Source: Candidatus Hodarchaeota archaeon (GTDB lineage: Archaea; Asgardarchaeota; Heimdallarchaeia; Hodarchaeales; Hodarchaeaceae). Taken from it: 25,127 bases of DNA. Both the position numbers and the translations under genes were made by a program. Position 1 is the first letter of the stretch; every line of letters starts with the position of its first letter. The stretch is taken from positions 1-25,127 of the forward strand of contig JAEOTQ010000118.1 of assembly GCA_016839785.1 (NCBI GenBank), read 5' to 3'. The notes beneath the pieces were generated by a model. It did no database searches. It saw nothing but the letters and a program-made list of their open reading frames with translations, and was not told the origin of the DNA. Positions 1-18,009 of the stretch are shown piece after piece.

Positions 1-50
1 AAAACGGCACCTGTGATGAGGATCGTCTTATTTTCTAATAATTTTCCCAT
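1..50 (-). CDS. Short-chain dehydrogenase/reductase (FabG/PhaB-like), 5' end only; runs off the window
   Basis: Not in the ORF track. Manual translation from ATG at 50 gives MGKLLENKTILITGAV, the typical SDR N-terminus leading into the TGxxxGxG NAD(P)-binding motif. It lies directly downstream of the MaoC gene. Confidence 0.75.
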   Translation of the reverse strand, partial: MGKLLENKTILITGAV

Positions 51-75
51 TTATCTCTCTTGTAGTAATGAATTC

Positions 76-89
76 TATATTAACTTTCA
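76..89 (-). promoter_or_regulatory. Candidate archaeal BRE/TATA promoter for the SDR gene
   Basis: Minus strand reads TGAAAG-TTAATATA, ending 25 nt before the SDR ATG, the spacing expected for a leaderless or short-leader archaeal transcript. Confidence 0.45.
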
Positions 90-102
90 AATAGTCTTTT
101 TA

Positions 103-510
103 TCAATCAAGAAGCATAACTAAAGCTTCACCCATAACAACTAATTCCTCTTGTTGGTTGATACATGTTGTTTTCAGCGTAAGATGGTTTTTCTCATCAT
201 TTTTACTGATTACCTCCACCTGTGTAGTAATAGTATCTCCTATACGAACTGGTCTTTTAAAAACTACCTCTTGTTTAAGATAAATAGTTCCTGGACCAGG
301 AAGCTGACTAGCTAAAGTAGTAGAAATAAAAGAAACAGATAACATACCATGAGCAATTCTCCCTTTAAACATAGTAGTTTTAGCATAGTCTTCATCCATA
401 TGAACAGGATTTAAATCACCAGATACTTCAGCAAACAGTTGAATGTCTTTCTCAGTTATAGTTCGTACATATTCAGCTTTTTGGCCTTTAATAATTTCTT
501 TATATTTCAT
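103..510 (-). CDS. phaJ: MaoC-family (R)-specific enoyl-CoA hydratase/dehydratase (hotdog fold)
   Basis: Hydratase-2 motif FAEVSGDLNPVHMD (catalytic Asp/His), plus GRIAHGML and LPGPGTIY. Start moved from GTG 522 to ATG 510 because AGGAGTGA (SD) overlaps the GTG and sits a few nt upstream of the ATG. Confidence 0.9.
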   Translation of the reverse strand: MKYKEIIKGQKAEYVRTITEKDIQLFAEVSGDLNPVHMDEDYAKTTMFKGRIAHGMLSVSFISTTLASQLPGPGTIYLKQEVVFKRPVRIGDTITTQVEVISKNDEKNHLTLKTTCINQQEELVVMGEALVMLLD

Positions 511-525
511 AGTTCTTATCACTCC

Positions 526-1551
526 TTACTCTTTTCCCCATCGTATTACTCCAGCATTCCATGCCCAGCCGATCCCCGCAGCAGCGAACACCACGATATT
601 TCCACCCTTAATTATTCCTTGTTTTACACCACGATCAATGGAAATAACCATATCATTTTGTCCGTTGTGGCCAATATCATCTAGATAGACTGATTGAGTA
701 TCTGGGTTCACACCAATAGCATTAGCTACATGGTCAAAAGCAGATTTCTTCATGTGAAGAAGGGCTAAAAAGTCTATATCATCTCTAGAAAGGTCGGATT
801 GTTCCAAAGCGTCATCAATAACACGAACAAATGAATCCATTGAAAATTTATCAAGTCTTCCTTTTAATCCTTCAGGATCGGTCACATCAAGGTAATTCAA
901 TCCTTCTTCAATGGCTTTTGCAGAAATTGGAGTAACAGTGCCTCCAGCTGGGACATATACATCATCAGCGAACCGTGCATCTGATACAGCGGCAATACCT
1001 AAGATTTCATTCTCTTTAGTATCTCCTTTCACAATCATTGCTACCCCACTTGCGGCTAGACTAATCATAAATCGTGTCCGTGGATTTTTATAATTTATTA
1101 GATCAGAATTTCTGTACCCCGAAGCTACAAGTACACGTTTCATTTTCGGATATACCTGCATTAATGCTTTTGCTAGTAATAATCCAACGGGCATACTTCC
1201 ACAACGCTGATTGATATCAAAAGCCCATGGTTTTGTGGGACATCCAAGATATTTTTGAAGCTTAATGCCGTAGGTTTGCATTGGATACTCAGAGTAAACT
1301 TCTCCCGCCCAAATTATGCAGTCAATGTCATCAGGGGTCAGGTTAGCCTTTTTCAATGCCTTTTTTGCAGCTTCCGCTCCCATGAATACGGTATGATCCT
1401 CAGGACCAGGAACTGTTTTAGCTTTTAAGCCAAATTTTGTTTCAAGAACTTTCTGTGGGATACCAGTTTCATTTGCGATATGTTCACTTGTGTGACGTTT
1501 ATCTGGAAGATAAACGCCCCAACTTTCGATTCCTACAGGTCTATGATTCAT
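526..1551 (-). CDS. 3-oxoacyl-ACP synthase III (FabH)-like protein A, non-canonical Cys-His-His(+Asp) active site
   Basis: Thiolase/KAS III fold motifs: AFDINQRC(117)G, LLH(266)MK, IGH(295)NGQND(300) and C-terminal AAAGIGWAW. SD AGGTG upstream. Confidence 0.88.
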   Translation of the reverse strand: MNHRPVGIESWGVYLPDKRHTSEHIANETGIPQKVLETKFGLKAKTVPGPEDHTVFMGAEAAKKALKKANLTPDDIDCIIWAGEVYSEYPMQTYGIKLQKYLGCPTKPWAFDINQRCGSMPVGLLLAKALMQVYPKMKRVLVASGYRNSDLINYKNPRTRFMISLAASGVAMIVKGDTKENEILGIAAVSDARFADDVYVPAGGTVTPISAKAIEEGLNYLDVTDPEGLKGRLDKFSMDSFVRVIDDALEQSDLSRDDIDFLALLHMKKSAFDHVANAIGVNPDTQSVYLDDIGHNGQNDMVISIDRGVKQGIIKGGNIVVFAAAGIGWAWNAGVIRWGKE

Positions 1552-1565
1552 GAGGTTACACCTAT

Positions 1566-3137
1566 TTACTTTAGTTCACGCTTTAGGATCTTACCAGCTG
1601 CGCTCAGTGGTAATTTATCCATGATTTCGAATATTTTTGGCACCTTATACTTCGCAAGATTAGCCAGTAAGTAATCTCGAAGTTCTTCTTGGGTAACTAC
1701 TTGATTTGGTTTCAATGTTACAAATGCTTTTCCTACCTCTCCCCATTTTTTGTCGGGAATCCCAATAACTGCAGCTAAAGCAATAGCTTTATGTTTATAC
1801 AGTATTTCTTCGATTTCTACTGGAAAGATATTTTCTCCGCCAGAAATATACATTTCTTTTGATCTTCCAACGATGTAGTAAAACCCTTCCTCATCTTGTC
1901 GTACAAGATCCCCTGTATGCATATACCCATCTGGCTTAAGCGTTTTATTCGTTTCTTCAGGCTCATCCCAGTAACCAGAAAATACATGGGGCCCCTTGAT
2001 TAATAGTTCTCCCACATCTCCCTGTTTAACCACCTCTCCTGTTTCTGGATGAACAGTTTTCAGGTCATTATGGAAAACAGGAAATCCCACCGAAAGGGGT
2101 TTCTCTTTGATTCTCTCATCTGGGAGGAAGAAATTGTTCGGGCCAGCTTCCGTTAGTCCATACCCCATCTTCATAAGTTTTCCCTTAGCCCAAAATCTTT
2201 TCATTATTTCTTCAGGGCAAGTAGCCCCACCAGAAATGAAAATTTTAACTGAATCGAACGTAGCATTAGTGAATTTTTCCGACATTGACATCATATGAAA
2301 TATCGTTGGTACCCCAACTACTATTGTACAATTTTCGTCCTCAATGACTCGGATAGTTTCATCAGGGTCAAAATCTCCCATTAAAATAGTCTTAGCACCT
2401 TGATGAAAGCAGGGAACTAATAAGACATTCCATCCACCAGTATGAAAAAGTGGAAACAGAAGAATTTCCACTTCATCAGGTTGAAGATTCCATGTAAGAA
2501 TAGTGTTAATAGAATTCCAGAAGATTAATCGATGCGATAGAACTGCTCCCTTAGGTAAACCAGTTGTACCACCCGTAAATAGTATCAAATGTGGATCTTC
2601 AAAGTGAATGGGTGGACGTAGAACGTTAGAATCATTTTTTTTAGCCATCAAATTCCGAGAGGCTAAATCATCGTCTAGCTTCTGATCTCCCATTACTATA
2701 TAATTCTTGACGGAAATGATTCCTTTTAATTCAATAATTTTTCCCTTAAGCTCAGGATCGTAAAATAACACTGATGGTTGGGTTTTTTCAACCAGATATT
2801 TGGTTTCTTGATTAGCTAATCGGATGTTAAGGGGAACAAGAATTGCTCCAATCTTACCTGTAGCAAAAAATAAATCTATATAATCTAGACGATTTTTAGA
2901 ATAAACTGCAACTCTTGTACCTTTCTTAACACCCAAATCACCCAGAACTCTGGCTAATTGATTCGCCCGAGAATTCATTTGAGCAAAAGTATAGTGTTTT
3001 TTCTCAATATTATCAATTATTGCTTCTTTATTAGGTGTTAATTGAGCTCTTCGTCCAACGTAATCTCCAATCCAGGACCAATCTTGATGATTTGCAGGGA
3101 TTAGGTAATCAGAATTCATGTTCAAATCAATCCTCAT
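1566..3137 (-). CDS. AMP-dependent acyl-CoA synthetase (ANL superfamily, MenE/FadD-like)
   Basis: FTGGTTGLPKG, FHTGG, GYGLTE, HTGD, GRSKEMYISGGENI and GKILK motifs. ATGA overlap with the upstream gene; an alternative start at ATG 3119 is preceded by GAGGA. Confidence 0.93.
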   Translation of the reverse strand: MRIDLNMNSDYLIPANHQDWSWIGDYVGRRAQLTPNKEAIIDNIEKKHYTFAQMNSRANQLARVLGDLGVKKGTRVAVYSKNRLDYIDLFFATGKIGAILVPLNIRLANQETKYLVEKTQPSVLFYDPELKGKIIELKGIISVKNYIVMGDQKLDDDLASRNLMAKKNDSNVLRPPIHFEDPHLILFTGGTTGLPKGAVLSHRLIFWNSINTILTWNLQPDEVEILLFPLFHTGGWNVLLVPCFHQGAKTILMGDFDPDETIRVIEDENCTIVVGVPTIFHMMSMSEKFTNATFDSVKIFISGGATCPEEIMKRFWAKGKLMKMGYGLTEAGPNNFFLPDERIKEKPLSVGFPVFHNDLKTVHPETGEVVKQGDVGELLIKGPHVFSGYWDEPEETNKTLKPDGYMHTGDLVRQDEEGFYYIVGRSKEMYISGGENIFPVEIEEILYKHKAIALAAVIGIPDKKWGEVGKAFVTLKPNQVVTQEELRDYLLANLAKYKVPKIFEIMDKLPLSAAGKILKRELK

Positions 3138-3928
3138 GTTATCAACTTATCTAAGAAACCAAGAACTATAGAATTAAACTCGTGAGGTTTTTCCCACGTC
3201 ACAACATGACCAGTTTCAGGAATAATGTGCAATTCAGAATTTGGGATCATCTCATGCATCGTCATAGAATAAGGATAAGGTGGTTTAATGAGATCTTGTT
3301 CACCTCCAATGATACACGTAGGAACTCGAATCTCTGATAATTGATCTGTTATATTTAAATCTAGAAAAGCATCCATTAACCTGACAAATGCTGGATAATC
3401 AAACTGTGAATACCGTTCCTTTGATTGTTCAAGTAATGCTTCATTCTTCTCAATATAACTTTCACTGAAATTAAAAGGTACGGTTGCATAGAAGAACATC
3501 AATGGGTCCGCTTGAACGCAGGCGCCTCGCCAAAGCTGACTAACTTGTTTTAAGTACGCACCGATATGAGTGACACCACTACATACTGTTAAACTCTTCA
3601 CACGTTCTGGATACTTCAAAGTGAACACTAGGCCCAGTTCAGACCCATAGGAGATACCAATATGATGTACTTGATCAATACCTAGAGCATCAAGAAGCTC
3701 TTTCTGATCTTGGGCGTGTAAATCAAATGAATACTTACCTTCAGGATGATCACTTTGGCCTTGTCCTCTCATATCATAGAGAATGACCTTATATCTTTTC
3801 GAAAAAACAGGGGTTTGATTAAACCAACTAAGAGTATTAGCAAAAACACCGTTAGCAAAAATAAGGGGTTCCCCTTCTCCATGCATTTCATAATAGATAT
3901 TGATTCCATTTACTTTCATCTGAGGCAT
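3134..3928 (-). CDS. Alpha/beta-fold serine hydrolase (enol-lactonase/esterase-like)
   Basis: Oxyanion ANGV, YDMRGQG, nucleophile elbow GISYG, GGEQD acid and GH catalytic His. TAATG overlap with the upstream ligase and SD GGTGA. Confidence 0.9.
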   Translation of the reverse strand: MPQMKVNGINIYYEMHGEGEPLIFANGVFANTLSWFNQTPVFSKRYKVILYDMRGQGQSDHPEGKYSFDLHAQDQKELLDALGIDQVHHIGISYGSELGLVFTLKYPERVKSLTVCSGVTHIGAYLKQVSQLWRGACVQADPLMFFYATVPFNFSESYIEKNEALLEQSKERYSQFDYPAFVRLMDAFLDLNITDQLSEIRVPTCIIGGEQDLIKPPYPYSMTMHEMIPNSELHIIPETGHVVTWEKPHEFNSIVLGFLDKLIT

Positions 3929-5496
3929 TATTCAGTCACCTTATCCCCGTAATCTTTTAGTAAGCGACGTTTTAGAATTTTACCTGCTCCTGAAATATAA
4001 GGAGCAAAACTCTCAATAAAAACCACTGATTTGGGAAGTTTAAACTTCGCTAATTTTCCTCGACAATATTCAAGCATCTCCTTTTCAGTCGAAAAAACAT
4101 CAGGTCGAAGCACAATAATTGCTCTTCCTGTCTCACCCCATCGATCATGAGGAACACCGATCACCTGAACTTGTACAACCTTGGAATGCTCTTCATAGAT
4201 TCTTTCAATTTCACGAGGATACACATTTTCTCCTCCTGAGATGAACATATCTTTTGTACGATCTAAAACATAGAAATATCCTTCTGAATCATAACGAACG
4301 ATATCGCCAGTAGCAAAAAACCCCTCAGTGTCTAATAATTGTGCATTAAGATTGGGTCGATTCCAGTAACCAGCCGTGACAGAAGGACCTTTAAACATCA
4401 ACTCTCCTGGTTCTTCAGGGCCGCATTCCTTGCCACTTTCGGGATTTACCACTTTTACATCAATGAAAAAATTGGGAGTGCCTATACTACCCTTTTTACG
4501 TTCTGCATCCCATGGATCAAGAGCAAAGCACCCTGGACCGACTTCCGTCATACCGAATCCTTGTTTAAATTTAACTCCGTGGATTTTCTGGAAGGTTTGA
4601 ATGATGTCCATGGGAAGAGGTTCCCCTCCTGACGTTAAAAAGCGAACACTACTGAAATCAGTTGTATCAAAATTCGGATTATTCATCATCATTCGATGTT
4701 GTGTAGGGACAGCGAAGAAGAAATCAGGTTTTTCACTTGTAATTAGTTGTAATACTTTTTCTGTATCCCATGTTTTCATTTGAATAATTTTTCCACCTAA
4801 GATAAAGAGAGGTACAGCATAAACGTAAATTCCTGCAACATGGAACATTGGTAGATGGTTGATATAGGTTGGAGGTACTCCATTTGTAGTAGCTGGGATA
4901 ATATCACGGGTTGTATTTAAGGTATTAAATGCTACATGGTTATAGGTCAAAAGAGCTCCTTTTGGTAATCCTGTTGTACCTCCTGTAAAAACAATGCCCA
5001 TGGGATCCTCATAAGTGAGATTCACCTTCGGAGGGGAGTGTTCGGAGGATTTATTGACTAATTCCTGGTATTTGATCGATCCTTGAAGATCTGAGGATTC
5101 AGAGTCCATGTTTAACCAGTGATCGACTTGTACAAGTTTCTGAATTTCCACACATGTTTCAGTAAACTCCTTTCCAAAAGCTACGATCTTTGGAGATAAA
5201 TCCTTTATCATTTCCGCTAGCTCACGAGCAACAAGTCGCCAATTTAATCCCGCAAGGATACCTCCGCGTTTTTGACAACCAAAAAAGAGTTCCCAATACT
5301 CAATTGTATTATGACTGATAACACACAATCTGTCCCCTTTTTGAAAGTCAAGCGACACAAGAGCATTAGCTACTTTATTAGCCCTTTGATTAAATTCTCG
5401 GTAAGTATAACGGTTTCCACTATCGATGTCTACAAGAGCTTCTACATCAGGGGAATATATTACACGTTTGGATAAATAATCAAATTGATTTACCAT
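3928..5496 (-). CDS. AMP-dependent acyl-CoA synthetase (ANL superfamily), second paralog
   Basis: FTGGTTGLPKG, PMFHVAG, GFGMTE, ATGD, DRTKDMFISGGENV and GKILKR motifs. Confidence 0.93.
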   Translation of the reverse strand: MVNQFDYLSKRVIYSPDVEALVDIDSGNRYTYREFNQRANKVANALVSLDFQKGDRLCVISHNTIEYWELFFGCQKRGGILAGLNWRLVARELAEMIKDLSPKIVAFGKEFTETCVEIQKLVQVDHWLNMDSESSDLQGSIKYQELVNKSSEHSPPKVNLTYEDPMGIVFTGGTTGLPKGALLTYNHVAFNTLNTTRDIIPATTNGVPPTYINHLPMFHVAGIYVYAVPLFILGGKIIQMKTWDTEKVLQLITSEKPDFFFAVPTQHRMMMNNPNFDTTDFSSVRFLTSGGEPLPMDIIQTFQKIHGVKFKQGFGMTEVGPGCFALDPWDAERKKGSIGTPNFFIDVKVVNPESGKECGPEEPGELMFKGPSVTAGYWNRPNLNAQLLDTEGFFATGDIVRYDSEGYFYVLDRTKDMFISGGENVYPREIERIYEEHSKVVQVQVIGVPHDRWGETGRAIIVLRPDVFSTEKEMLEYCRGKLAKFKLPKSVVFIESFAPYISGAGKILKRRLLKDYGDKVTE

Positions 5497-5499
5497 AAA

Positions 5500-6504
5500 T
5501 TACCACCATTGTAACACTGCTGCAGAAAAATTTGCTCCCCCCCCAGATGTACATAGAGCAATGATCTCCCCATTCCCTTGACCTGGAGGGGGAAGTTTAC
5601 CTTTTGCTATTGCATCATAGATCACTAAAGGGACACATGCAGACCCTGTATAACCCCATTTATGCATTACGGTGTGTGTTTTTTCGATTGGTGCTCCTAG
5701 GGAGTCCATTACTGCTTTTATTGTAGATTTGTTAACTTGTGTAAAAAAGAACCAATCACAATCATCAGGAATTAGATTTACTTTCTCTAAGGCCTGTCTG
5801 GTGACAATAGGCCAGTTATTGACATTCGTTTCTGGAGGAAATCGTTTCCTAAACTCTACAAACTGTTTACCACAATTTTGATCCTTACATGGTTCTGCTG
5901 TTCCTCCAACGAATATTCCAAGATGATCATAGTAGCTGCCATCCGCATTAAGTTGGGAACTCAAAAATCCCTTCTTATTTTCGCTTGCAGAAAGAATTAT
6001 TGCCCCAGCTCCATCGGAGAATAATGTGCAAGTATAGTGGTTTGACCAATCCACAAATTTTGTCATTCCATAAGCACCAATAACCATTACATGTCTAATG
6101 GAAGTATCTGTCTGAATATAACGAGCCCCAATATCTAATGCAGTAACTAGACCTGCACAAGCAGCATTTACATCAAAAGTTCCAGCATTGATTGCACCGA
6201 TTTTGTGAGCAATAGCTACTGATGTTGCGGGAGAAAGAAAATCAGGAGTATCTGTGCTAAGGATAAGTATATCGATGTCTTCAGCAATTAAACCTGCTTT
6301 TTCTAAGGCTTCTTTACCTGCTTTTGTCGCCAAATCAGAAGTATTTTCTTCATCCGCCATAAGTCGACGTTGCTTAATACCTACGTTCTTAACAAGCCAG
6401 TCTGCTGTGCCGGGACGATTTAAAGATTTCTCTAGTTCTTCATTGGTGACAATCTTGTCAGGAACATACATCCCTATACCTGTTATTATTGCAGATCGAC
6501 TCAT
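5500..6504 (-). CDS. 3-oxoacyl-ACP synthase III (FabH)-like protein B, Cys retained but His and Asn replaced
   Basis: FabH-like N-terminus (AIITGIGMYVPDKIVTN, GIKQRR), FDVNAAC(116)AG and LFSDGAGA. HQAN appears as TQVN (Thr255) and GNTS as GYTG (Tyr285). Confidence 0.88.
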   Translation of the reverse strand: MSRSAIITGIGMYVPDKIVTNEELEKSLNRPGTADWLVKNVGIKQRRLMADEENTSDLATKAGKEALEKAGLIAEDIDILILSTDTPDFLSPATSVAIAHKIGAINAGTFDVNAACAGLVTALDIGARYIQTDTSIRHVMVIGAYGMTKFVDWSNHYTCTLFSDGAGAIILSASENKKGFLSSQLNADGSYYDHLGIFVGGTAEPCKDQNCGKQFVEFRKRFPPETNVNNWPIVTRQALEKVNLIPDDCDWFFFTQVNKSTIKAVMDSLGAPIEKTHTVMHKWGYTGSACVPLVIYDAIAKGKLPPPGQGNGEIIALCTSGGGANFSAAVLQWW

Positions 6505-6513
6505 ATCATCATC

Positions 6514-7365: not shown

Positions 7366-7377
7366 CAATTATCTCTC

Positions 7378-8868: not shown

Positions 8869-8884
8869 CTTGATTATCTCCTCG

Positions 8885-10144: not shown

Positions 10145-10159
10145 AAGTTTTCACCTTCT

Positions 10160-10870: not shown

Positions 10871-11633
10871 GTATACCACCTAAATACGCTGAAAGAACGT
10901 TTTCATTGTTCTGTATTTCTTTTGGGGTTCCTTTAGCCAGAACTGATCCTTGAGATAGAACAATGACTTCTTGACTAATCTTCATTACGATCCCCATTTT
11001 ATGCTCGATAACTATCATTGTTAAATTGTCACCGAACGATTTCTTGATTTTCAGAAGTATCTCATAAATTTCTGGAATTTCTTCAACAGACATCCCCGCT
11101 GTCGGTTCATCAAGCAGCAATAACTTTGGATTTGTTGCTAAAGCCATGGCTATTTCTAATTTACGCTGTTCTGCGTGAGGTAATAGTGATGCGGGTGCAT
11201 AAAGACGTATTGGATCAATACCGATAAGATCGGCAAATCTAAACGTTTCCTCATGGTATTCTGCATAAGAACTTGCTTTTCCCACAAGATTATAGTGAAC
11301 TTGAGTGTTACCACGGCTTTGAACTGCTAGACGGATATTTTCAAATGTCGTTAGGTAGGGAAAAATATTCGTAATCTGATACGATCTTGAAATACCTAAT
11401 TGAGAGATAGTGTGAGGAGCTAACCCAGCAATGTCTCTATCGTTAAGAAATATGCTTCCTGATGTTGGTTTAAGAACTCCAGTTAATAAATTGAAAAATG
11501 TTGTCTTACCAGAACCATTTGGACCAATAATAGATTTTAATGATCCTTTTTCAAAATCGAGCGACACCTTGTTGACCGCTACCAGCCCTCCAAACTCTTT
11601 GGTTAAACTTTTTGTGCTTAATATTGCTGTCAC
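10857..11633 (-). CDS. livG: ABC ATPase (LivG-like)
   Basis: FGGLVAV, GPNGSGKT, degenerate signature LPHAEQ, LLLLDEP, IEHKM and the C-terminal AYLG typical of LivG. Confidence 0.92.
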   Translation of the reverse strand: MTAILSTKSLTKEFGGLVAVNKVSLDFEKGSLKSIIGPNGSGKTTFFNLLTGVLKPTSGSIFLNDRDIAGLAPHTISQLGISRSYQITNIFPYLTTFENIRLAVQSRGNTQVHYNLVGKASSYAEYHEETFRFADLIGIDPIRLYAPASLLPHAEQRKLEIAMALATNPKLLLLDEPTAGMSVEEIPEIYEILLKIKKSFGDNLTMIVIEHKMGIVMKISQEVIVLSQGSVLAKGTPKEIQNNENVLSAYLGGIHEFT

Positions 11634-11669: not shown

Positions 11670-12689
11670 TCATAAAATATATGTATTTCCTGCTCTTAAA
11701 ACAGTAAATTTAGCTTCTACTCCTTCTTCCAATAATTTCAGAGCTTTATCACAAGTATCGTGAGCTGAAAGTAATAATTTTTTTACTTTGATCGAATTAA
11801 GGAATTTAATCGTTTTTGATAAATCCTTCAAAGTGATCTTCTTAGGAAATGGCTTACCAGTTCCCAAAACTTGTTGGAAAGGCACTCCCCAAATTTTCCC
11901 TCTTGATTCGCTAATAGGAAAATGTAAACCTCCCACGATTGCATAAATAGGTTCATTTGGAACCATTTTTTTTACCATTTTGACAATAACCTCAATTGTT
12001 GGATGTCCACACCCAGTTAGTATCAAAATTCCTTTATTTCTAATTTTGGTTATAATTGCTTGCTCTTCAATATTATTTAAGTAAAATAACTCTCTCCTAA
12101 GTGGCCCTGTTGTAGCAAATCCTGACCCAATGACCATTGGTTTCGTAGTGACAATTATTTTCAAATCATCAGAGGTACAAAACTCGGGCACATAAGCAGA
12201 CCGTTTATTGGTAGTTTTTACTATGTCAGGTAGTGAAATTTCCTTCTCTTTCTTACCCACACTCACCCCCGCATGATCAGAATGTAAATGGGAAAATATG
12301 AATTTGTCGATTTGTTTCTCAAACAAACCAATTTTGTTAACATTAAATGAAAAAACAGGATTTTGATTTCCAAATCCGATATCCATTAGCAAAGATCCTT
12401 TATTTGTCTCTAGATAATAGGAAACTGCTGGATTTCCTTTATATCCCTCTTGAAAATAAAAATCCACAATAACACTCAGATTTAGGAATTCTATTTCTTC
12501 AATTTCGAAAGGAACAGCTGAGTTTATTCGAATGTTATTTTGTTGATTAGTTCTCTGAATTCGTTTTTTAAACTGATAATTTTTCAAAAATAGATATGGT
12601 AAAATTATGGGCGAACTGATAATTAATGCTGGTAAATACGACGTCCACCACCATAAATGAAAGATCCTGGTAGTTAATCTGGCCACCAT
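11670..12689 (-). CDS. Metallo-beta-lactamase-fold hydrolase with hydrophobic N-terminal segment
   Basis: SHLHSDH (HxHxDH), TGCGHP, VGGLH and SAHD metal-binding motifs. The TGCxH/GGLH pattern fits the MJ0448-like MBL subfamily. Confidence 0.85.
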   Translation of the reverse strand: MVARLTTRIFHLWWWTSYLPALIISSPIILPYLFLKNYQFKKRIQRTNQQNNIRINSAVPFEIEEIEFLNLSVIVDFYFQEGYKGNPAVSYYLETNKGSLLMDIGFGNQNPVFSFNVNKIGLFEKQIDKFIFSHLHSDHAGVSVGKKEKEISLPDIVKTTNKRSAYVPEFCTSDDLKIIVTTKPMVIGSGFATTGPLRRELFYLNNIEEQAIITKIRNKGILILTGCGHPTIEVIVKMVKKMVPNEPIYAIVGGLHFPISESRGKIWGVPFQQVLGTGKPFPKKITLKDLSKTIKFLNSIKVKKLLLSAHDTCDKALKLLEEGVEAKFTVLRAGNTYIL

Positions 12690-12727
12690 CTAACTAGGTT
12701 TTTACCGAAAATTCGACTTAATATCAT

Positions 12728-12751: not shown

Positions 12752-14167
12752 TTATTTTTTCTTCTTCTTATAGAAAACTACTGGTACTATAGCTATCATT
12801 GCTAATGCAAGTCCGAAACCAGGAGCTCTAGTAACAGTTGTCACAACAGTAGTAACGTCTGGATAGGGGACGTAGTTTGTAGCAACTGGGGGAGCACAGT
12901 CTAACGCTGGGATACTTTGATTTAATTCCGCAATGATCATGTTGTACGTTTCAGAGGTTGCATCAGTATCGTTAACGACATCAGCGATGTACATCTCAGC
13001 TAATCCTTGGTGATCAGTGGGGCGTAAATATGTTGGTCCCTTTGGTGTAGTAATGTTCAAACCTTCTAAATGAGCAATCATATTGTCAATTTGAAGAGTT
13101 GGAACAGTGTTTGTAACATTAACTAAGAATTGAGCTGCTCCAAAGGCGCTAGCTGTGAAAAGCTCTGGAACTCGGTATGTAAGTCCGTATTGACCGTTAG
13201 GTGTAACATCTCTGTCGATATGTTCTTGAACCATCCAATCATTGACTGGATTATCTGGGAGTTTGTATCCATAAACACATAATCCTTGGGTTCCAACAAT
13301 AGTTCCTCCAAGAGGTTTTAATGCTGCCTCTAGTGCATTCATTGAAAGAATATCAATAGCTACACCGGAAATATTCATGTTAGCACCAACATTGTATGTT
13401 GCGATATCTGCCCACATACCTGTAAAACTACCAGCCCAGATGATATGAAGCATATCGATACGGCCTGTAGTAGCTTCGGTGTTAAGTCTGGTTAGGTAAG
13501 AAGAGAAATCAGTGGTTCCGTAGGGGGCATACTCGGTTGTAACGACTTGGCCTCCACGTTTAACGACTTCACTCTGCATTGCAGCGACACCTGTGTATCC
13601 GAAAGGATGGTCTAGAGCGAGGAAAGCAATTTTCTTTGCATCTAATACGTCCATAGAATGATAAATACCTGCTTTAGCATCATGGTAACTATTACGAGCT
13701 ACACGGAAGGTATGTTTATCAAATAAGCTGGCTGTAATTTCAGCATCAGCAGCAGGTCCTGCAAAATATAACTTTCCGTAATCAGCGGCTACTTGCATGA
13801 TATTTGGTGCGACACTGCTTGAAATACCTCCAACAAGAATATCTATTCCGTCGGTTTCAATCGCATCTGTGGCAATAGCTGTAACAGCTGAACCGACACC
13901 TGTTGTGTCATAATAATGTATTTCATAAGGTGCACCAGTATCTGTCTGATTAGTATTGTCTGTTGAATATATTAGTCCTAATTCAAATCCTTGTTTAACC
14001 CATGGTGTATAAGCAACCAGAGTTCCTGTTTCTTGAATAAAGACACCTATTTTAATAGGATCTGTCTGATTAGTCTCTTCTGGCAATCCTAAAGTAGGAA
14101 TAAAGCTTGCTGCAGAAAACACAAACAGAAATAAAATTGTTAATGAAAATAGATTTGCTTTTTTCAT
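12752..14167 (-). CDS. LIV-type (PBP1) ABC solute-binding protein SBP1 with C-terminal PGF-type membrane anchor
   Basis: N-terminal signal peptide, PIKIG, DILVGGISS, TFRVARNSYHDA, TTDFS and TPKG..LRPTDHQ motifs. It ends in a Thr-rich linker, PGF, a TM segment and KKKKK. Confidence 0.9.
   Translation of the reverse strand: MKKANLFSLTILFLFVFSAASFIPTLGLPEETNQTDPIKIGVFIQETGTLVAYTPWVKQGFELGLIYSTDNTNQTDTGAPYEIHYYDTTGVGSAVTAIATDAIETDGIDILVGGISSSVAPNIMQVAADYGKLYFAGPAADAEITASLFDKHTFRVARNSYHDAKAGIYHSMDVLDAKKIAFLALDHPFGYTGVAAMQSEVVKRGGQVVTTEYAPYGTTDFSSYLTRLNTEATTGRIDMLHIIWAGSFTGMWADIATYNVGANMNISGVAIDILSMNALEAALKPLGGTIVGTQGLCVYGYKLPDNPVNDWMVQEHIDRDVTPNGQYGLTYRVPELFTASAFGAAQFLVNVTNTVPTLQIDNMIAHLEGLNITTPKGPTYLRPTDHQGLAEMYIADVVNDTDATSETYNMIIAELNQSIPALDCAPPVATNYVPYPDVTTVVTTVTRAPGFGLALAMIAIVPVVFYKKKKK
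13940..14074. repeat. Exact 15-nt direct repeat ATCTGTCTGATTAGT (13940-13954 and 14060-14074) inside SBP1
   Basis: Both copies encode TNQTD with identical codons and lie 120 nt apart. Confidence 0.7.
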
Positions 14168-14392: not shown

Positions 14393-15040
14393 ATGCCTTT
14401 AGAATTGAACAGAATATTTGAGAAAGAGCCAATAGGCAATGACAAAACCTCTAAAAAGAAAAGACGTCGGGTTATTCCATCATTAAAGGTCACCGTAGGA
14501 ATAATTGGAGTTTGTTGGGAATCCCCTTCGACAAACGGGGAAATTGCACGCTCCCTAGGAGTCACTGATTCAGTAATTTCCGAAGCTATTAAAGGACGTC
14601 TATTTGATTCCAAGTTACTTTTAAAAGATGAGAGTTATTTGAGTAAAAAGAGTTTTCATTATACTATTAATTTCTCTGGAATAATAGATTACATCACAAA
14701 CCATTTTGAGGTTACTCCTTCTATTGATAATGAGAATATAAAAGAAATTCTCATGATGAATCGTGAAATTGTAGCAGACCGCCTGCTTTGGTTTGTAACA
14801 GACAGTACTTATGAGAAAAGTCTTAGAAAAGTACGTCATGTCTATGAAACCATCCCTGAATTATTACTATTATTAATTTTAAGTCTCGATCCTAATGTAG
14901 AAAATAATAATGTGGAATACTGCCAATTTCTTCGTGAATTTCATCGTGGAATCTTTGAAAAATACAAAGAGGAATCTCCTTTAATCCATGTGTGGTCTGG
15001 TTTCCTCTGGCAAATTTATCGACCTGTAATTTCAAGCTGA
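14393..15040 (+). CDS. Putative winged-HTH DNA-binding protein/transcription regulator
   Basis: HTH-like segment STNGEIARSLGVTDSVISEAIKG followed by a wing-like stretch. Divergent from the transport/enzyme cluster. The C-terminal helical domain is not recognised. Confidence 0.6.
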   Translation: MPLELNRIFEKEPIGNDKTSKKKRRRVIPSLKVTVGIIGVCWESPSTNGEIARSLGVTDSVISEAIKGRLFDSKLLLKDESYLSKKSFHYTINFSGIIDYITNHFEVTPSIDNENIKEILMMNREIVADRLLWFVTDSTYEKSLRKVRHVYETIPELLLLLILSLDPNVENNNVEYCQFLREFHRGIFEKYKEESPLIHVWSGFLWQIYRPVISS

Positions 15041-15135
15041 AACCTAGTAAGAATGGTTTCGAGTGTCTTCTATTCTCTTTTCACCGAAAAAATAAATCAC
15101 TTGGTATAAGAACGTGTTTTTGAAAAAATCTAAAT

Positions 15136-16569
15136 TTAGAATATAATCCGTCGTTTCAAAATAACAGGAATCGTTCCCATAGCTACTAATGGGAGTACTA
15201 TGGTCATTGCAGAGGTCTTTTGGGGTCTCGTAAGGCTTCCAGGTATCCAGTTACTCTCGAGAGGTGGGGTAACTTCCTCAGGCGTAAGTCGTTCGATGAG
15301 CCTGGGAATTAGATAACCATATGTTTCTGAAGATTGTCTTGTATCATTCCAAATTTCCGCTATATAGAATTCAGTGATGGCTTGATGATCTTCTGGACGA
15401 AGATATGTGTCTCCTTTTGGAGTGATAATCGATAGATTACTTTCTAAATAGTTTACCATGTCGTAAATGTCAAAATCTGACACTCTATTGGATACATTCA
15501 CCAAAAATTGTGCTGTAGCAAAACCACTCGCCGAAAATAATTCTGGTACGCGGTATTCATGATTAGAAAATTCCGCATTAGGACGAATATTTCTATTGAG
15601 ATATTCCTGTACCATCCAGTCGTTCACTGGGTTGTTGGGTAATTCATAGCCATATAAACATAATCCTGTTGATCCTAAAAGCGTGTGAGGAGGTGATAAA
15701 CTTTCTTCTATGACATTAATTGAGTAAATATCGATTACTGCCCCTCCCACACCCATACCAGAGGTAACATTGTACTCACCTAAATCTTGCCAGAGGTACC
15801 CAAAATTCCCTGACCAAATGATAAATAGATAATCTATCCCTATATTTTCTTCTGCTGTAAGGATATTACTTATATAAGGACTAAAATCAGTTGTTGTTAG
15901 GGGTGCATATTGAACCAAAATAACTGATCCACCCTTTTCTGAAATAACATGAGTCATTGTATCGACTCCGCTGTGACCAAATGTATAGTCGGCAGCGAAA
16001 AAGGCGAATTTTTCTGCTCCTAGCGTTTCAATAGCATACGTAACTCCTGCATATGCGTCCATCCAGTTATTTCGTGCAATCCGGAAAGTATATGGATTAA
16101 AATCCTTTCCAGTTAGATCACTATCAGCACCTGGGACAATGAAGAAGAGTTTTTGATGTTCTTCGGCTACTTTAGCTATTGCCCCTGCTACATCAGAATA
16201 GGTTCCTCCTACAAGGACATCTACTTCATCTCTTGTAATTGCTGCTTCTGCAAGAGAGATAGCATCAGCAACTAATCCTTTAGTATCATAGTAAACTATG
16301 TCAAAGGGTCTTCCACAAAGAGTTGAATTTGTATTATTGGTAGCATAACTCATTCCAAGTTCAAATCCTTGTTTCGACCAATCTGAATAGAAAGATAAGC
16401 TTGCAGTGGTTTCAGCACTAAAAAATCCAATTTTAATGGGTTTTACTCCCACAACTCCACCTTTCAGGTTTCCTGTACTCATAAGGTAAGAAGTTGATAG
16501 TAAAACGAAAAATAAAACAGAAAATTTTCCCAATGAGCTGGTTCTTTTCCTAGTAAACGTACTTATCAA
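15136..16569 (-). CDS. LIV-type solute-binding protein SBP2, paralog of SBP1, C-terminal TM anchor without PGF
   Basis: Shares blocks with SBP1 (QGFELG, NPVNDWMVQE, YRVPELF, TPKG.TYLRP.DHQ). Hydrophobic N- and C-termini. The TTG start is uncertain. Confidence 0.87.
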   Translation of the reverse strand: MISTFTRKRTSSLGKFSVLFFVLLSTSYLMSTGNLKGGVVGVKPIKIGFFSAETTASLSFYSDWSKQGFELGMSYATNNTNSTLCGRPFDIVYYDTKGLVADAISLAEAAITRDEVDVLVGGTYSDVAGAIAKVAEEHQKLFFIVPGADSDLTGKDFNPYTFRIARNNWMDAYAGVTYAIETLGAEKFAFFAADYTFGHSGVDTMTHVISEKGGSVILVQYAPLTTTDFSPYISNILTAEENIGIDYLFIIWSGNFGYLWQDLGEYNVTSGMGVGGAVIDIYSINVIEESLSPPHTLLGSTGLCLYGYELPNNPVNDWMVQEYLNRNIRPNAEFSNHEYRVPELFSASGFATAQFLVNVSNRVSDFDIYDMVNYLESNLSIITPKGDTYLRPEDHQAITEFYIAEIWNDTRQSSETYGYLIPRLIERLTPEEVTPPLESNWIPGSLTRPQKTSAMTIVLPLVAMGTIPVILKRRIIF

Positions 16570-16752
16570 TTTTGCTCACGGAGGTTATTGGATTTTAAGA
16601 AGAGAACTATTGCCTAATTGGATATCTCTGAATAGAACTAAGTTAAAAAGTTACATGACAGAGTAGGAAAAATCAGTCACATTGGAAAACCATAATTATC
16701 GATTCTAGATTGTAATAAGCTGATTGATATTCCCTTTGAAAGGTGCTGAAAA

Positions 16753-18009
16753 TTGGCTTTTCTAAAGATTAAACGACCTATTGGGTTTCAATGGATTATT
16801 TTAGGAAGTTTAATCTTTTTTTCATTATTTCCAATACTAATCTTGGAATTCGTTCAGGTAATGACTGTTCCCGAACAATTAGAACAACATGAAATAGAAA
16901 TTAGTGAAAGTGAGCTAAATTTTGTTGCAGATTCTATTCAAAATTCACTCTTTGAAGATGCTACTCGTTTAGTTCTTCTTGCAGAAAACGAGCATATACT
17001 CCAATTTTTAAAAAATAATGATAGTCAGCCGTATTTCGATCGTGCTATAGAAGCGCTGACCGATTATACTAATATTTCTTCACGATTGACTTCATTACCC
17101 CTCGGAGTAGGTGAACATACGGTTCTCGAAGTTGGACTTGATTTAATAGAATCTTATATAACTTCTAAAGAGATTTCAGGTGATCAGCTAACTCGTTTAG
17201 CTACTCTCACGAACGATTTTGATTCTGATCAGTATCTCATAAGTGGGAAACAAAATATCTTGAACCTGCAGAATTATTATCCTTACCTACAGATTAAGTC
17301 TTTTTATCCTGAAAAAGAGCATTATTCTTCCTCTATTCGTCAAATGACAAATTTTATGAATCAAGAAGCAATCCGTGATGAAAATCAAAACCCTATTCCT
17401 GTAATTGTTCATTCTCGCATAATTAAAGAATCTGATGCCTATATCGGTTGTCTGTACTCGGTGATATCGGCGGAGTGGGTACTTGAATTGATTGATGAAT
17501 TAAGTGAACACGATAAACCAGCAATTTTAACGAATCGAAATGGGAGTGTATTCTACTCTAATCATAATTTAGCATTTACTGAAGTTACAGGTTATTATGA
17601 AACAATTTTAGATGCAGGATTTGACACGACATTTATCGATCGTAATGGATTTGAAGGGGAAATTACGATTTATCGGCAAATTGCAATAGATGTAGAACAA
17701 AACCAATCTCTCCTTGTGGCGAAAGTCTTACCGAGGAATACCATACTTAGCTCCTTTCAAAGAGCATTATTTCAGGCTATCTTGACGATTATTTTATCTA
17801 CGGCATTAGCTACCCTTTTAGCATATTTTACTAGTAATACCATTGCTAAACGTATTCGAAAGGTTACTCAGGCTGCAGATAAAATTTCTGAAGGTGATTT
17901 TGGAGTAGATTTAGACCTAGCTGGCACAGATGAACTAGCAAAACTATCTCAATCCTTCGATCGTATGACAAAGAGACTAAAAATCTACATAAAAGAGGAA
18001 GAAGAATAG
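16753..18009 (+). CDS. Two-TM membrane receptor: extracellular (Cache-like) domain plus C-terminal HAMP, no output domain
   Basis: TM1 at about aa 13-33, a long extracellular region, TM2 at about aa 338-360, then HAMP RIRKVTQAADKISEGDF..GTDELAKLSQSFDRM and a stop after KEEEE. The TTG start has SD AGGTG. Confidence 0.82.
   Translation: MAFLKIKRPIGFQWIILGSLIFFSLFPILILEFVQVMTVPEQLEQHEIEISESELNFVADSIQNSLFEDATRLVLLAENEHILQFLKNNDSQPYFDRAIEALTDYTNISSRLTSLPLGVGEHTVLEVGLDLIESYITSKEISGDQLTRLATLTNDFDSDQYLISGKQNILNLQNYYPYLQIKSFYPEKEHYSSSIRQMTNFMNQEAIRDENQNPIPVIVHSRIIKESDAYIGCLYSVISAEWVLELIDELSEHDKPAILTNRNGSVFYSNHNLAFTEVTGYYETILDAGFDTTFIDRNGFEGEITIYRQIAIDVEQNQSLLVAKVLPRNTILSSFQRALFQAILTIILSTALATLLAYFTSNTIAKRIRKVTQAADKISEGDFGVDLDLAGTDELAKLSQSFDRMTKRLKIYIKEEEE

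What the first reader, a model, noticed from the sequence alone, without database searches (positions are those of the whole stretch)
1..18009. Candidate undescribed system: ACP-free, CoA-based acyl-compound pathway linked to import and sensing
Seen: two ligases, two non-canonical FabH-like enzymes, two Ser hydrolases, MaoC and an SDR are tightly packed with a LIV importer and an MBL hydrolase. They are flanked by a divergent HTH gene, a duplicated SBP and an output-less HAMP receptor. No ACP, PPTase or malonyl transacylase is in the window. Known: FabH-like pairs working with CoA ligases act outside fatty-acid initiation, e.g. Pseudomonas pqsABCDE (ANL ligase, FabH-like PqsB/C/D, MBL-fold PqsE). 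Inference: the locus imports an organic acid, ester or lactone, activates two different acids, and joins or remodels them into a lipid, storage precursor or diffusible signal that is also sensed. From memory, smaller single-FabH versions of this neighbourhood occur in other prokaryotes, so novelty must be tested; it may lie in the doubled module and the sensing arm.
Basis: partly seen in the sequence, partly recalled or inferred. Interest (0 to 1): 0.8.

Follow-up and report, generated by a model that had tools for sequence, protein, structure and literature searches.

The report
Importer-linked operon with rebuilt FabH-like enzymes
An Asgard archaeon from marine sediment carries a tightly packed, horizontally spread gene cassette that most likely takes up an organic acid or ester and processes it on coenzyme A with two FabH look-alikes that cannot do FabH's normal reaction; in bacteria the same cassette sits beside genes for the storage polyester PHA, which gives a testable guess at its substrate.

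Summary
The gene set is real, except that no SDR is in the window. Thirteen co-directional genes (103-14167, minus strand, gaps of 62 bp or less) encode MaoC, two ANL ligases, two alpha/beta hydrolases, two FabH-fold proteins, a LIV/HAAT ABC importer, a weak MBL and a binding protein. A winged-helix regulator, a second binding protein and a HAMP-only membrane protein follow.

Both FabH-likes are non-canonical. FabH2 is Cys-Thr-Tyr in place of Cys-His-Asn. FabH1 has Cys, a displaced His, and His at the Asn column.

The genome (84.5% complete) shows no ACP, PPTase or FabD.

The cassette is not peculiar to this organism. The same two modules recur in Thorarchaeota-type Asgard genomes, and the core hydrolase-FabH(CTY)-ligase triad recurs in diverse bacteria with other importers. 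So the doubled module is not the novelty.

New here: in several bacterial lineages the cassette lies in one block with PHA depolymerase, PhaR or PhaC genes. The best reading is a scavenging and catabolic acyl-CoA cassette, possibly for PHA-derived 3-hydroxy acids. The FabH-like reaction is unknown.

This scan found the same cassette before on other Asgard DNA. I found no description in the searched literature.

The parts
103..522 (-). MaoC-type (R)-specific enoyl-CoA hydratase, last gene of the operon
   Evidence: PF01575 96.7 bits. The SGDLNPVH stretch is present; that this is the hydratase-2 motif is recalled. A homologue directly follows FabH1 in 10 of 20 Asgard loci.
526..1551 (-). FabH-like 1 (PRK06840 family): Cys117, His266, His295-Asn296
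   Evidence: NF005308 403.6 bits, cut-off 315. Best solved structure only 70 bits. His266 lies one column after the canonical His, and His295 lies at the canonical Asn column. These residues are invariant in 120 of 120 homologues.
1566..3137 (-). ANL ligase 1 (acyl-CoA synthetase type)
   Evidence: AMP-binding 277 bits. Best PDB 8wev/8weu (feruloyl-/fatty-acyl-CoA synthetase) 329 bits, then FadD13 and MatB. Adjacent to FabH1 in 16 of 20 Asgard loci.
3134..3928 (-). alpha/beta hydrolase 1 (esterase type)
   Evidence: Abhydrolase_1 107 bits. Best PDB hits are metagenomic esterases 4q3l and 5egn. GISYG serine box.
3928..5496 (-). ANL ligase 2
   Evidence: AMP-binding 272 bits. 37% identical to ligase 1. 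Best PDB 8weu, 294 bits.
5500..6504 (-). FabH-like 2: Cys116-Thr255-Tyr285 in place of Cys-His-Asn
   Evidence: 182 bits to Aquifex FabH 2ebd. In all four printed alignments to canonical FabH, His is replaced by Thr and Asn by Tyr. Invariant in 121 of 121 homologues. Forms a separate clade, 99/98 support.
6514..7368 (-). alpha/beta hydrolase 2 (esterase type)
   Evidence: Abhydrolase_1 107 bits. Best PDB Est1 6eb3/8v16, 163 bits. 34% identical to hydrolase 1.
7378..11633 (-). LIV/HAAT-family ABC importer: two permeases and two ATPases
   Evidence: BPD_transp_2 twice and ABC_tran twice. The nearest NCBIfam models are UrtB/C/D/E, all below cut-off. Same order in Thor-type loci.
11670..12689 (-). 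membrane-anchored MBL-fold protein, not part of the conserved cassette
   Evidence: Lactamase_B 23.5 bits. PDB 7dck 44.6 bits. No tblastn match in the other Asgard loci.
12752..14167 (-). substrate-binding protein 1, first gene of the operon
   Evidence: Peripla_BP_6 117 bits. C-terminal hydrophobic tail visible.
14393..15040 (+). divergent winged-helix regulator (probable)
   Evidence: No Pfam hit. AF2 model with H-H-H-beta-beta order at residues 31-92. Best Foldseek rows are MarR/ArsR at E of 0.02 or worse. Homologues sit next to the cassette in 2 related contigs.
15136..16569 (-). substrate-binding protein 2
   Evidence: Peripla_BP_6 155.5 bits. Best PDB 3n0x/3nnd, about 132 bits. In the sister genome one SBP2 homologue stands beside ligase 1, and a second (68%) is paired with the HAMP gene.
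16753..18009 (+). HAMP-only membrane protein, divergent from SBP2
   Evidence: HAMP at residues 359-409 of 418. A 55% homologue with a 422-aa open frame in G190 is again divergent from an SBP2 homologue.

Best explanation
This is an accessory, horizontally spread uptake-and-processing cassette that works on CoA thioesters, not on ACP.

Shown:
- A LIV/HAAT ABC importer with two binding proteins is co-transcribed, by gene spacing, with two esterase-type hydrolases, two acyl-CoA-synthetase-type ligases, an (R)-specific MaoC hydratase and two KAS III-fold proteins with fixed, non-canonical active sites.
- The cassette is built from two older modules. Module A is ligase1-FabH1-MaoC. Module B is importer-hydrolase2-FabH2-ligase2-hydrolase1-binding protein.
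- The hydrolase-FabH(Cys-Thr-Tyr)-ligase core is shared with many bacteria that use other importers.

Inferred:
- An organic acid or its ester is imported.
- Ester bonds are cut by the hydrolases, and the acids are made into acyl-CoAs by the ligases.
- MaoC interconverts (R)-3-hydroxyacyl-CoA and enoyl-CoA, which the genome's many crotonases and 3-hydroxyacyl-CoA dehydrogenases can carry on.
- The FabH-likes load the acyl group on their cysteine. They then do a non-decarboxylative step, either thiolase-like C-C cleavage or formation, or ester/thioester acyl transfer, with the Thr and Tyr hydroxyls replacing His and Asn.

Leading substrate candidate (about 0.3 of the total): (R)-3-hydroxyalkanoates or their oligomers released from bacterial PHA. 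In bacteria the cassette is repeatedly joined to PHA depolymerase, PhaR and PhaC genes. This archaeon has no PhaC, so it would be a consumer.
For: Operon anatomy.

No ACP, PPTase or FabD in the genome.

FabH2 is Cys116/Thr255/Tyr285, invariant in 121 of 121 homologues. The Arg of the canonical HQANxR stretch aligns with Ser; that this Arg docks ACP is recalled. FabH1 residues are invariant in 120 of 120.

Asgard distribution: FabH1 in 95 of 301 genomes and FabH2 in 35 of 301. Of the 35, 30 also have FabH1, and in 15 the two lie within 12 kb. In the window's own genus only 3 of 20 and 2 of 20 other genomes carry them. Module order is conserved.

The Cys-Thr-Tyr signature is found in 19 of the 130 full-length cluster representatives aligned (20 of 131 rows with the query). 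Named members come from Anaerolineales, Caldisericia, Thermofilum/Infirmifilum, Saprospiraceae and Spirochaetia. Asgard sequences form one clade (100/99) and Thermofilum sits elsewhere.

In 74 divergent metagenome loci, a ligase lies directly downstream in 42 of 46 testable cases and a hydrolase directly upstream in 32 of 52. Among 28 loci of 10 kb or more: hydrolase in 28, ligase in 27, LIV ATPase in 12, SBP in 12, MaoC in 11.

Bacterial wiring is TetR, a CarboxypepD_reg/OMP barrel, hydrolase, FabH(CTY), a long FadD11-like ligase, hydrolase, MaoC, and an anion-symporter-like MFS.

PHA genes in the same blocks:
- Extracellular scl-PHA depolymerase over cut-off in L087 and L057 (294.7 and 293.7 bits, cut-off 150).
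- PhaR over cut-off, overlapping the start of the cassette's ligase, in L097.
- PhaC-like genes in L042, L075, L097 and L105, and a class I PhaC fragment in L081.

The genome has 10 crotonase and 7 3-hydroxyacyl-CoA dehydrogenase matches.

Literature, passages read: LIV-type binding proteins of R. palustris mostly bind fatty, dicarboxylic or aromatic acids rather than Leu/Ile/Val (PMC3223731). An alpha/beta-hydrolase (PhaG) plus CoA ligases feed 3-hydroxy acids to PHA (bioRxiv 10.64898/2025.12.18.695248). FabH is cited as a 3-hydroxyacyl-ACP:CoA transacylase in PHA supply (PMC8231600).
Against: No enzyme here has been assayed, so the FabH-like reaction is wholly inferred.

No PHA gene lies next to the cassette in any of the 27 Asgard loci or in this genome.

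The PHA link rests on 7 distinct bacterial loci out of 74, perhaps 5 lineages. L057, L081, L097, L105 and L042 were examined because a tblastn with PHA queries had picked them. Of the 6 loci chosen without regard to PHA, 2 carried a PHA gene. Four of the five PhaC-like genes are below NCBIfam cut-offs, and the fifth (L081) is cut by the contig end.

Both ligases are closest to a feruloyl-/fatty-acyl-CoA synthetase structure, and the binding proteins have no ligand-defined close relative. Aromatic or plain fatty acids therefore fit as well.

The hydrolases match PHA depolymerase models only weakly (65-87 bits, cut-offs 250-300).

A catabolic beta-oxidation-like reading needs a dehydrogenase that is not in the window.

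Thr and Tyr could in principle still support some condensation.
Confidence: 0.55

Rival explanations
1. Same catabolic logic, different substrate. The cassette takes up plant- or detritus-derived aromatic acids or their esters (hydroxycinnamates), plain fatty or dicarboxylic acids, or N-acyl amino acids. The ligases activate the acids, MaoC hydrates an enoyl-CoA, and a FabH-like cleaves the side chain.
For: Both ligases are closest to the 8wev/8weu feruloyl-/fatty-acyl-CoA synthetase structures (329 and 294 bits). SBP2 has weaker matches to R. palustris SBP structures such as 4evs, 4f06 and 4ey3; that these bind aromatic acids is recalled. LIV-type SBPs often bind aromatic, fatty or dicarboxylic acids (PMC3223731 passages). 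An M20 amidohydrolase and an EamA transporter adjoin the cassette in related Hodarchaeales contigs and in L019. The bacterial MFS genes resemble aromatic-acid and organic-anion symporters, below cut-off.
Against: No crotonase-type hydratase/lyase, benzoyl-CoA or ring-cleavage gene is in the cassette in any locus examined. The recurrent neighbours in bacteria are PHA genes, not aromatic-catabolic ones.
Confidence: 0.22
2. Two different acids are activated and joined by the FabH-likes into a lipid, storage monomer or diffusible signal, in the manner of PqsABCDE, OleABCD/beta-lactone or DarB. The product is sensed by SBP2 and the HAMP protein.
For: ANL plus KAS III-fold plus alpha/beta-hydrolase is also the part list of OleC/OleA/OleB (recalled). 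KAS III-like enzymes with incomplete triads, such as PqsC, condense CoA substrates; PqsC is a weak hit. In bacteria the cassette can adjoin PhaC, so it could supply (R)-3-hydroxyacyl-CoA monomers there (literature passages). The SBP2-HAMP pair is conserved in 2 genomes.
Against: FabH2 lacks His and Asn, and FabH1 lacks them at the canonical columns. No SDR (OleD) is in the window. The ligases are nearest to acyl-CoA synthetases. The MBL is not conserved with the cassette. No exporter is conserved with it. No PhaC is in this genome or in 5 other Asgard carriers. The bacterial contexts are uptake-type: TetR, TonB-type barrel, extracellular depolymerase.
Confidence: 0.13
3. ACP-independent fatty-acid synthesis or elongation on CoA in an Asgard archaeon, with a KAS III-like condensing enzyme, the MaoC dehydratase, and a reductase encoded elsewhere.
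For: The genome shows no ACP, PPTase or FabD but has a carboxyltransferase that could make malonyl-CoA. A KS-like enzyme plus a MaoC dehydratase are two of the four activities of a synthesis cycle.
Against: The decarboxylation residues are replaced in a fixed way. There is no ketoreductase or enoyl reductase in the operon. It is physically part of an importer operon. It is patchy: 3 of 20 and 2 of 20 other genomes in its own genus. It is shared with bacteria, where it sits in uptake contexts. The published archaeal fatty-acid synthase uses thiolase/DUF35 pairs, and that preprint has no occurrence of 'FabH' or 'KAS' (passages and term counts of 10.1101/2024.07.05.601840).
Confidence: 0.05

Closest known systems
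FabH / KAS III (E. coli 1hn9, Aquifex 2ebd, B. subtilis FabHA 8vd9)
   Same: Same fold and domain pair (PF08545 and PF08541). The nucleophilic Cys sits in the same motif. FabH2 scores 182 bits to 2ebd.
   Different: His is replaced by Thr and Asn by Tyr in FabH2. In FabH1, His is displaced by one column and His stands at the Asn column. No ACP, PPTase or FabD is in the genome. The genes sit in an importer operon.
LIV/HAAT importer plus CoA-ligase catabolic operons of Rhodopseudomonas palustris (the pim-adjacent RPA3723-3725 and the cou cluster)
   Same: A LIV-type importer and binding proteins stand beside acyl-CoA ligases for organic acids. Such binding proteins bind fatty, dicarboxylic or aromatic acids (PMC3223731 passages).
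   Different: Here two esterases and two rebuilt KAS III-fold enzymes are interleaved inside the transporter operon, and no beta-oxidation dehydrogenases are adjacent.
PHA cycle enzymes (PhaZ/PhaG hydrolases, 3-hydroxyacid CoA ligases AlkK/FadD1, PhaJ, PhaB/FabG, PhaA)
   Same: The same families appear side by side: alpha/beta-hydrolase, ANL ligase, MaoC, and in bacteria a FabG-type SDR in 18 loci at 56% identity or more. PHA depolymerase, PhaR and PhaC adjoin the cassette in bacteria.
   Different: The thiolase place is taken by KAS III-fold proteins. None of the window's proteins reaches the cut-off of a PHA model. No PhaC or PhaR was found in this genome.
Pseudomonas PqsABCDE
   Same: An ANL ligase, FabH-like enzymes working on CoA substrates, and an MBL-fold protein in one locus.
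   Different: PqsD has Cys-His-Asn. PqsC is only a weak hit (47.7 and 56.3 bits). The MBL is weak and not conserved with the cassette. There is no importer in pqs (recalled).
OleABCD / beta-lactone pathways
   Same: The part list of a KAS III-fold enzyme, an ANL enzyme and an alpha/beta-hydrolase.
   Different: No OleD-type SDR. OleA keeps His and Asn (recalled). OleA structures (3row, 4kti and others) match only the N-terminal 120 residues of FabH2 at about 62 bits. The ligases are nearest to CoA synthetases.

Membership tests
FabH / beta-ketoacyl-ACP synthase III | KAS III fold (ACP_syn_III and ACP_syn_III_C domains) | tested here: met
   Both proteins carry PF08545 and PF08541.
FabH / beta-ketoacyl-ACP synthase III | Cys-His-Asn catalytic triad | tested here: not met
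   FabH2 is Cys116/Thr255/Tyr285 in four alignments to canonical FabH. FabH1 has Leu265 at the His column and His295 at the Asn column. Both sets are fixed in 121 of 121 and 120 of 120 homologues.
FabH / beta-ketoacyl-ACP synthase III | ACP, PPTase and malonyl-CoA:ACP transacylase available | tested here: not met
   PF00550, PF01648 and PF00698 each gave 0 matches in the 84.5%-complete genome, with the controls ringing.
PqsABCDE-type alkylquinolone pathway | PqsD-type Cys-His-Asn enzyme plus a conserved MBL-fold thioesterase | tested here: not met
   No Cys-His-Asn enzyme. The MBL gene gave no tblastn match in the other Asgard loci.
OleABCD / beta-lactone synthetase pathway | OleD-type SDR and an OleA with His, Asn and Glu | tested here: not met
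   No SDR in the window. His and Asn are replaced. The OleA Glu was not examined.
LIV/HAAT ABC importer | Two BPD_transp_2 permeases, two ABC ATPases and a Peripla_BP_6 binding protein | tested here: met
   NCBIfam equivalog cut-offs (Liv, Urt) are not reached, so the substrate class is open.
PHA / 3-hydroxyalkanoate catabolic or supply module | Linkage to PHA-specific genes (depolymerase, PhaR, PhaC) | tested here: inconclusive
   Met in 7 distinct bacterial loci. Not met in the window, its genome or 5 other Asgard carriers.
PHA / 3-hydroxyalkanoate catabolic or supply module | Binding or turnover of 3-hydroxy acids by the SBPs, ligases and hydrolases | not testable with these tools
   Needs ligand screens and enzyme assays.
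ANL acyl-CoA synthetase | AMP-binding and AMP-binding_C domains, and closest relatives that are CoA ligases | tested here: met
   No NCBIfam equivalog cut-off is reached, and CoA thioester formation itself was not tested.

The most novel reading that the evidence does not exclude
The Cys-Thr-Tyr KAS III-fold proteins, with the PRK06840-type partner, are a new enzyme class. They use the FabH scaffold for a non-decarboxylative reaction on CoA thioesters of 3-hydroxy or 3-keto acids, either thiolase-like cleavage or formation, or thiolysis of ester bonds. Together with dedicated importers, they let ACP-less archaea (Asgard, Thermofilum) and many anaerobic or soil bacteria feed on, or in PhaC-bearing bacteria refill, the storage polyester PHA. 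This would make Asgard archaea scavengers of bacterial PHA in sediments.
Probability: 0.2. Interest if true: 0.7.

Novelty: new variant of a known kind. Interest (0 to 1): 0.5.

Why it matters
Databases name both proteins 'ketoacyl-ACP synthase III' (source names). In Asgard genomes that label invites the reading that these archaea start bacterial-type fatty-acid synthesis, which bears on the 'lipid divide' debate. The residue and context evidence says otherwise: this is an accessory uptake cassette that archaea and bacteria have exchanged.

The Cys-Thr-Tyr clade is a widespread enzyme family with a fixed, unexplained active site. It keeps a constant three-gene core of hydrolase, FabH-like and ligase.

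The PHA linkage found here turns 'substrate unknown' into a short list that can be tested with standard ligand screens and assays. Cultured carriers exist, in the genus Thermofilum.

Tried and rejected
Ole/beta-lactone reading: considered first because of the ANL, KAS III and hydrolase part list. Dropped for lack of an SDR, the replaced His and Asn, and ligases nearest to CoA synthetases.

Methanogen origin: no MCR. The homologues' names place the contig in Hodarchaeales/Asgard.

The search for related loci with a single protein gave only 3 loci, so I used the genome search instead.

Neighbourhoods outside the core in 8 Asgard loci are unrelated housekeeping or sensor genes.

Pfam at E up to 5 and the protein atlas gave nothing firm for the 215-aa gene. 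Foldseek gave no row with E of 0.001 or better.

RNA evidence: no RNA holder was listed for 526-7368. The DNA holders are marine-sediment metagenomes of 2 studies.

Literature: searches for Asgard with FabH, Asgard with ketoacyl, KAS III-like acyltransferases, and PHB depolymerase with TonB and 3-oxoacyl-ACP synthase found no description of the cassette. Searches for PDB codes 6EB3 and 8WEV/8WEU gave nothing useful.

A FabH1-FabH2 heterodimer was considered and not pursued. FabH1 occurs without FabH2 in 65 of 95 genomes, and the CTY gene occurs without a FabH1-like gene in 24 of 28 long bacterial loci.

The second structure job and the VIA fold searches were not used.

Full report
WHAT IS THERE. 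The window is a whole 25,127-base contig (G000:C73) of a 4.04-Mb, 84.5%-complete genome. GC is even at 0.34-0.41. Homologues of its proteins are named Hodarchaeales, Promethearchaeota, Thorarchaeota and the like, so this is an Asgard archaeon. DNA holders of the stretch are marine-sediment metagenomes.

On the minus strand, 13 genes run from 14167 to 103, with spacings from a 23-bp overlap to a 62-bp gap. Their order is SBP1, a weak MBL-fold protein with an N-terminal hydrophobic stretch, LivG-, LivF-, LivH- and LivM-like importer genes, hydrolase 2, FabH-like 2, ligase 2, hydrolase 1, ligase 1, FabH-like 1 and MaoC.

Upstream and divergent lies a 215-aa gene. Then come SBP2 (minus strand) and, divergent from it, a HAMP-only membrane protein. 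No SDR exists in the window. The pairs are old paralogues, not a recent duplication: SBPs 43%, ligases 37%, hydrolases 34% and FabH-likes 22% identical.

THE TWO FabH-LIKE PROTEINS. FabH2 resembles true FabH closely overall (182 bits to Aquifex FabH). In all four printed alignments, however, the canonical His aligns with Thr255 and the canonical Asn with Tyr285, while Cys116 is kept. The Arg of the HQANxR stretch aligns with Ser; that this Arg docks ACP in E. coli FabH is my recollection. Cys, Thr and Tyr are invariant in 121 of 121 aligned homologues.

FabH1 belongs to NCBIfam PRK06840 (403.6 bits, cut-off 315) and is far from any solved structure (70 bits). It keeps Cys117. The canonical His column holds Leu265 and the next residue is His266. 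The canonical Asn column holds His295, followed by Asn296. All are invariant in 120 of 120 homologues. Bacterial FabH1-like genes keep the Cys, the HMK and the GH but not Asn296. Whether His266 reaches the active site could not be measured with these tools.

Among the 130 full-length cluster representatives nearest to FabH2, 19 carry Cys-Thr-Tyr and 104 carry Cys-His-Asn (20 and 104 of 131 rows with the query). The Cys-Thr-Tyr sequences form a clade with 99/98 support.

NO ACP SYSTEM. Six-frame searches of the genome found no PP-binding (ACP), ACPS (PPTase) or Acyl_transf_1 (FabD) domain, while the bacterial controls rang. The one ketoacyl-synt match is marginal at 22 bits. One carboxyltransferase is present. 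The genome is incomplete, so absence is not proven.

THE CASSETTE IS CONSERVED AND MODULAR. In a sample of 301 Asgard genomes, FabH1 is found in 95 at E of 1e-60 or better, and FabH2 in 35 at E of 1e-80 or better. FabH2 is almost confined to one family (f11, 31 of 76) plus the window's genus. Of the 35 FabH2 genomes, 30 also have FabH1, and the 5 exceptions are 74-83% complete. In 15 genomes the two genes lie within 12 kb on one contig. In the window's own genus only 3 of 20 other genomes have FabH1 and 2 of 20 have FabH2, so the cassette is accessory there.

In 20 fetched Asgard loci, a ligase-1 homologue is directly adjacent to FabH1 in 16 and within 3 kb in 19. MaoC directly follows FabH1 in 10.

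In Thor-type genomes the second module reads LivG-LivF-LivH-LivM-hydrolase2-FabH2-ligase2-hydrolase1-SBP. It usually lies divergent from ligase1-FabH1-MaoC. The sister genome G190 has the same genes in another order. The window has them fused into one co-directional string, with an extra MBL gene that gave no tblastn match in the other Asgard loci.

The SBP2/HAMP divergent pair recurs only in G190, on another contig. That is 2 of 22 genomes of the genus.

OUTSIDE THE ASGARD ARCHAEA. Named members of Cys-Thr-Tyr clusters come from Anaerolineales, Caldisericia, Saprospiraceae, Spirochaetia and the cultured archaeal genera Thermofilum and Infirmifilum. A Cys-Asn-Tyr variant comes from Bipolaricaulota. 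In the tree the Asgard sequences are one clade (100/99) next to the Anaerolineales representative (80/76), and Thermofilum sits elsewhere. Archaeal members are therefore not one group, and transfer between domains is likely.

A scan of metagenome contigs gave 80 loci, of which 6 are 60% or more identical to the window's gene and were set aside. In the other 74:
- a ligase gene lies directly downstream in 42 of 46 testable loci;
- a hydrolase lies directly upstream in 32 of 52 testable loci;
- the 28 loci of 10 kb or more hold a hydrolase in 28, a ligase in 27, a LIV ATPase in 12, an SBP in 12, MaoC in 11 and a FabH1-like gene in 4.

Two layouts recur. One keeps the LIV importer and often a FabG-type SDR. 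That SDR scores 298.3 bits against NF004198 (cut-off 296) in L046, and 18 loci including L046 itself carry it at 56% identity or more. The other layout replaces the ABC importer: TetR, a CarboxypepD_reg/OMP-barrel protein, hydrolase, FabH(CTY), a roughly 600-aa FadD11-like ligase, hydrolase, MaoC and an anion-symporter-like MFS. A constant enzyme core joined to interchangeable uptake parts and a TetR repressor is the pattern of a nutrient-uptake pathway.

A LEAD TO THE SUBSTRATE. Of the first six bacterial loci annotated without regard to PHA, two held PHA genes: an extracellular short-chain PHA depolymerase in L087 and a class III PhaC-like gene in L075. Searching all loci with these proteins, followed by Pfam and NCBIfam, gave:
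- depolymerase over cut-off in L087 and L057 (294.7 and 293.7 bits, cut-off 150); L102 is the same DNA as L087;
- a PhaR over cut-off (112.9 bits against 109.45) whose end overlaps the start of the cassette's ligase in L097;
- class III PhaC-like genes in L105 (361.3 bits, cut-off 365.3), L042 (315.8), L075 (313.8) and L097 (221);
- a class I PhaC fragment at the contig end of L081 (406 bits).

That makes 7 distinct loci, with GC from 0.34 to 0.65, so several lineages. The later ones were chosen because they matched, so the rate is not an unbiased estimate.

The families in the cassette are those known around PHA. An alpha/beta-hydrolase (PhaG) plus the CoA ligases AlkK and FadD1 feed 3-hydroxy acids to PhaC (bioRxiv 10.64898/2025.12.18.695248; abstract and passages). 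FabH is cited as a 3-hydroxyacyl-ACP:CoA transacylase for PHA (PMC8231600; one passage). PhaJ is MaoC-type and PhaB is an SDR; both of those are recalled.

In this archaeon no PhaC, PhaR or depolymerase homologue was found, nor PhaC_N in 5 other Asgard carriers. Here the cassette would work in the consuming direction. The genome has 10 crotonase and 7 3-hydroxyacyl-CoA dehydrogenase matches to take enoyl-CoA further.

HOW IT MOST LIKELY WORKS.
- Shown: the parts, their order, the fixed non-canonical active sites, the lack of an ACP system, and the conserved core.
- Inferred: the importer brings in an organic acid or small ester. The two esterase-type hydrolases free the acids; their best structural relatives by sequence are metagenomic esterases. 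The two ligases make CoA thioesters. MaoC converts (R)-3-hydroxyacyl-CoA to enoyl-CoA.
- Speculative: the FabH-likes take the acyl group on Cys and perform a step that needs no malonyl decarboxylation. One option is thiolase-like C-C cleavage or formation, with the Tyr hydroxyl as proton donor and Thr and Tyr as the oxyanion hole. The other is transfer between ester and thioester. A precedent for a thiolase-fold enzyme rebuilt around tyrosines, the steroid aldolase Ltp2, is recalled and was not checked here.

COMPARISON AND NOVELTY. The locus is not FabH/FAS-II, not Pqs and not Ole (see the membership table). It works like the LIV-importer plus CoA-ligase catabolic operons of R. palustris (PMC3223731 passages), with an added enzyme core that is uncharacterised. 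I found no paper describing the cassette or the Cys-Thr-Tyr clade. The preprint on archaeal fatty-acid synthase has no occurrence of 'FabH' or 'KAS' (term counts and passages). Subscription journals are not covered by these searches.

Earlier reports of this scan described the same cassette and the same active-site changes in Thorarchaeota genomes. I re-derived those points independently. What this report adds is the Hodarchaeales, single-string version with its SBP2/HAMP pair, the absence of the claimed SDR, the alternative bacterial uptake wiring, and the PHA linkage.

VERDICT. This is a real, conserved, accessory cassette. It is most likely catabolic scavenging on CoA (0.55), with PHA-derived 3-hydroxy acids as the leading but unproven substrate. 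It is a new variant of a known kind, and I score its interest at 0.5.

Noticed in passing
window 22405-25028 (minus strand): A molybdenum hydroxylase pair at the contig's right end: a large subunit with Ald_Xan_dh_C, MoCoBD_1 and MoCoBD_2, and a [2Fe-2S] small subunit that may run off the contig. Its substrate is unknown.
   Followed up: no
window 18111-22321: An MsbA-like ABC exporter (18111-19886, plus strand), a YdjM-family membrane protein (19914-20435) and a HisKA_7TM-PAS histidine kinase (20486-22321) follow the HAMP gene. No response regulator is in the window.
   Followed up: no
L111:2520-4836; L003; L019:3832-7193: An M20 peptidase/amidohydrolase and EamA transporter genes adjoin the cassette in related Hodarchaeales contigs and in one f11 genome. 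This hints at amide-linked (N-acyl) substrates.
   Followed up: partly
L015:14173-15573: In genome G239 a Condensation/PapA-like acyltransferase gene, an MFS gene and an AHSA1-domain gene lie between the two modules. AHSA1-domain genes also follow MaoC in L013 and L019.
   Followed up: no
L098:598-3124: A bacterial locus has two FabH1-like paralogues flanking a PEMT/ICMT-type methyltransferase. The second paralogue has Gln where the family's His266 stands.
   Followed up: no
window 7378-11633: The importer's permeases are long (496 and 419 aa). All four transporter proteins score best against urea-transporter (Urt) models, below cut-off, and better than against Liv models.
   Followed up: no
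(genome handles): The window's FabH1 is closer to family f14 (about 70%) than to f11 (56-62%), yet FabH2 was found only in f11, the window's genus and one f19 genome. The two modules may have different histories. In G241 they lie 333 kb apart.
   Followed up: partly
L046:12368-13264: In one bacterial cassette MaoC is a double-hotdog protein of 298 aa, and a third ligase and a 353-aa hydrolase with a long insert are present.
   Followed up: no
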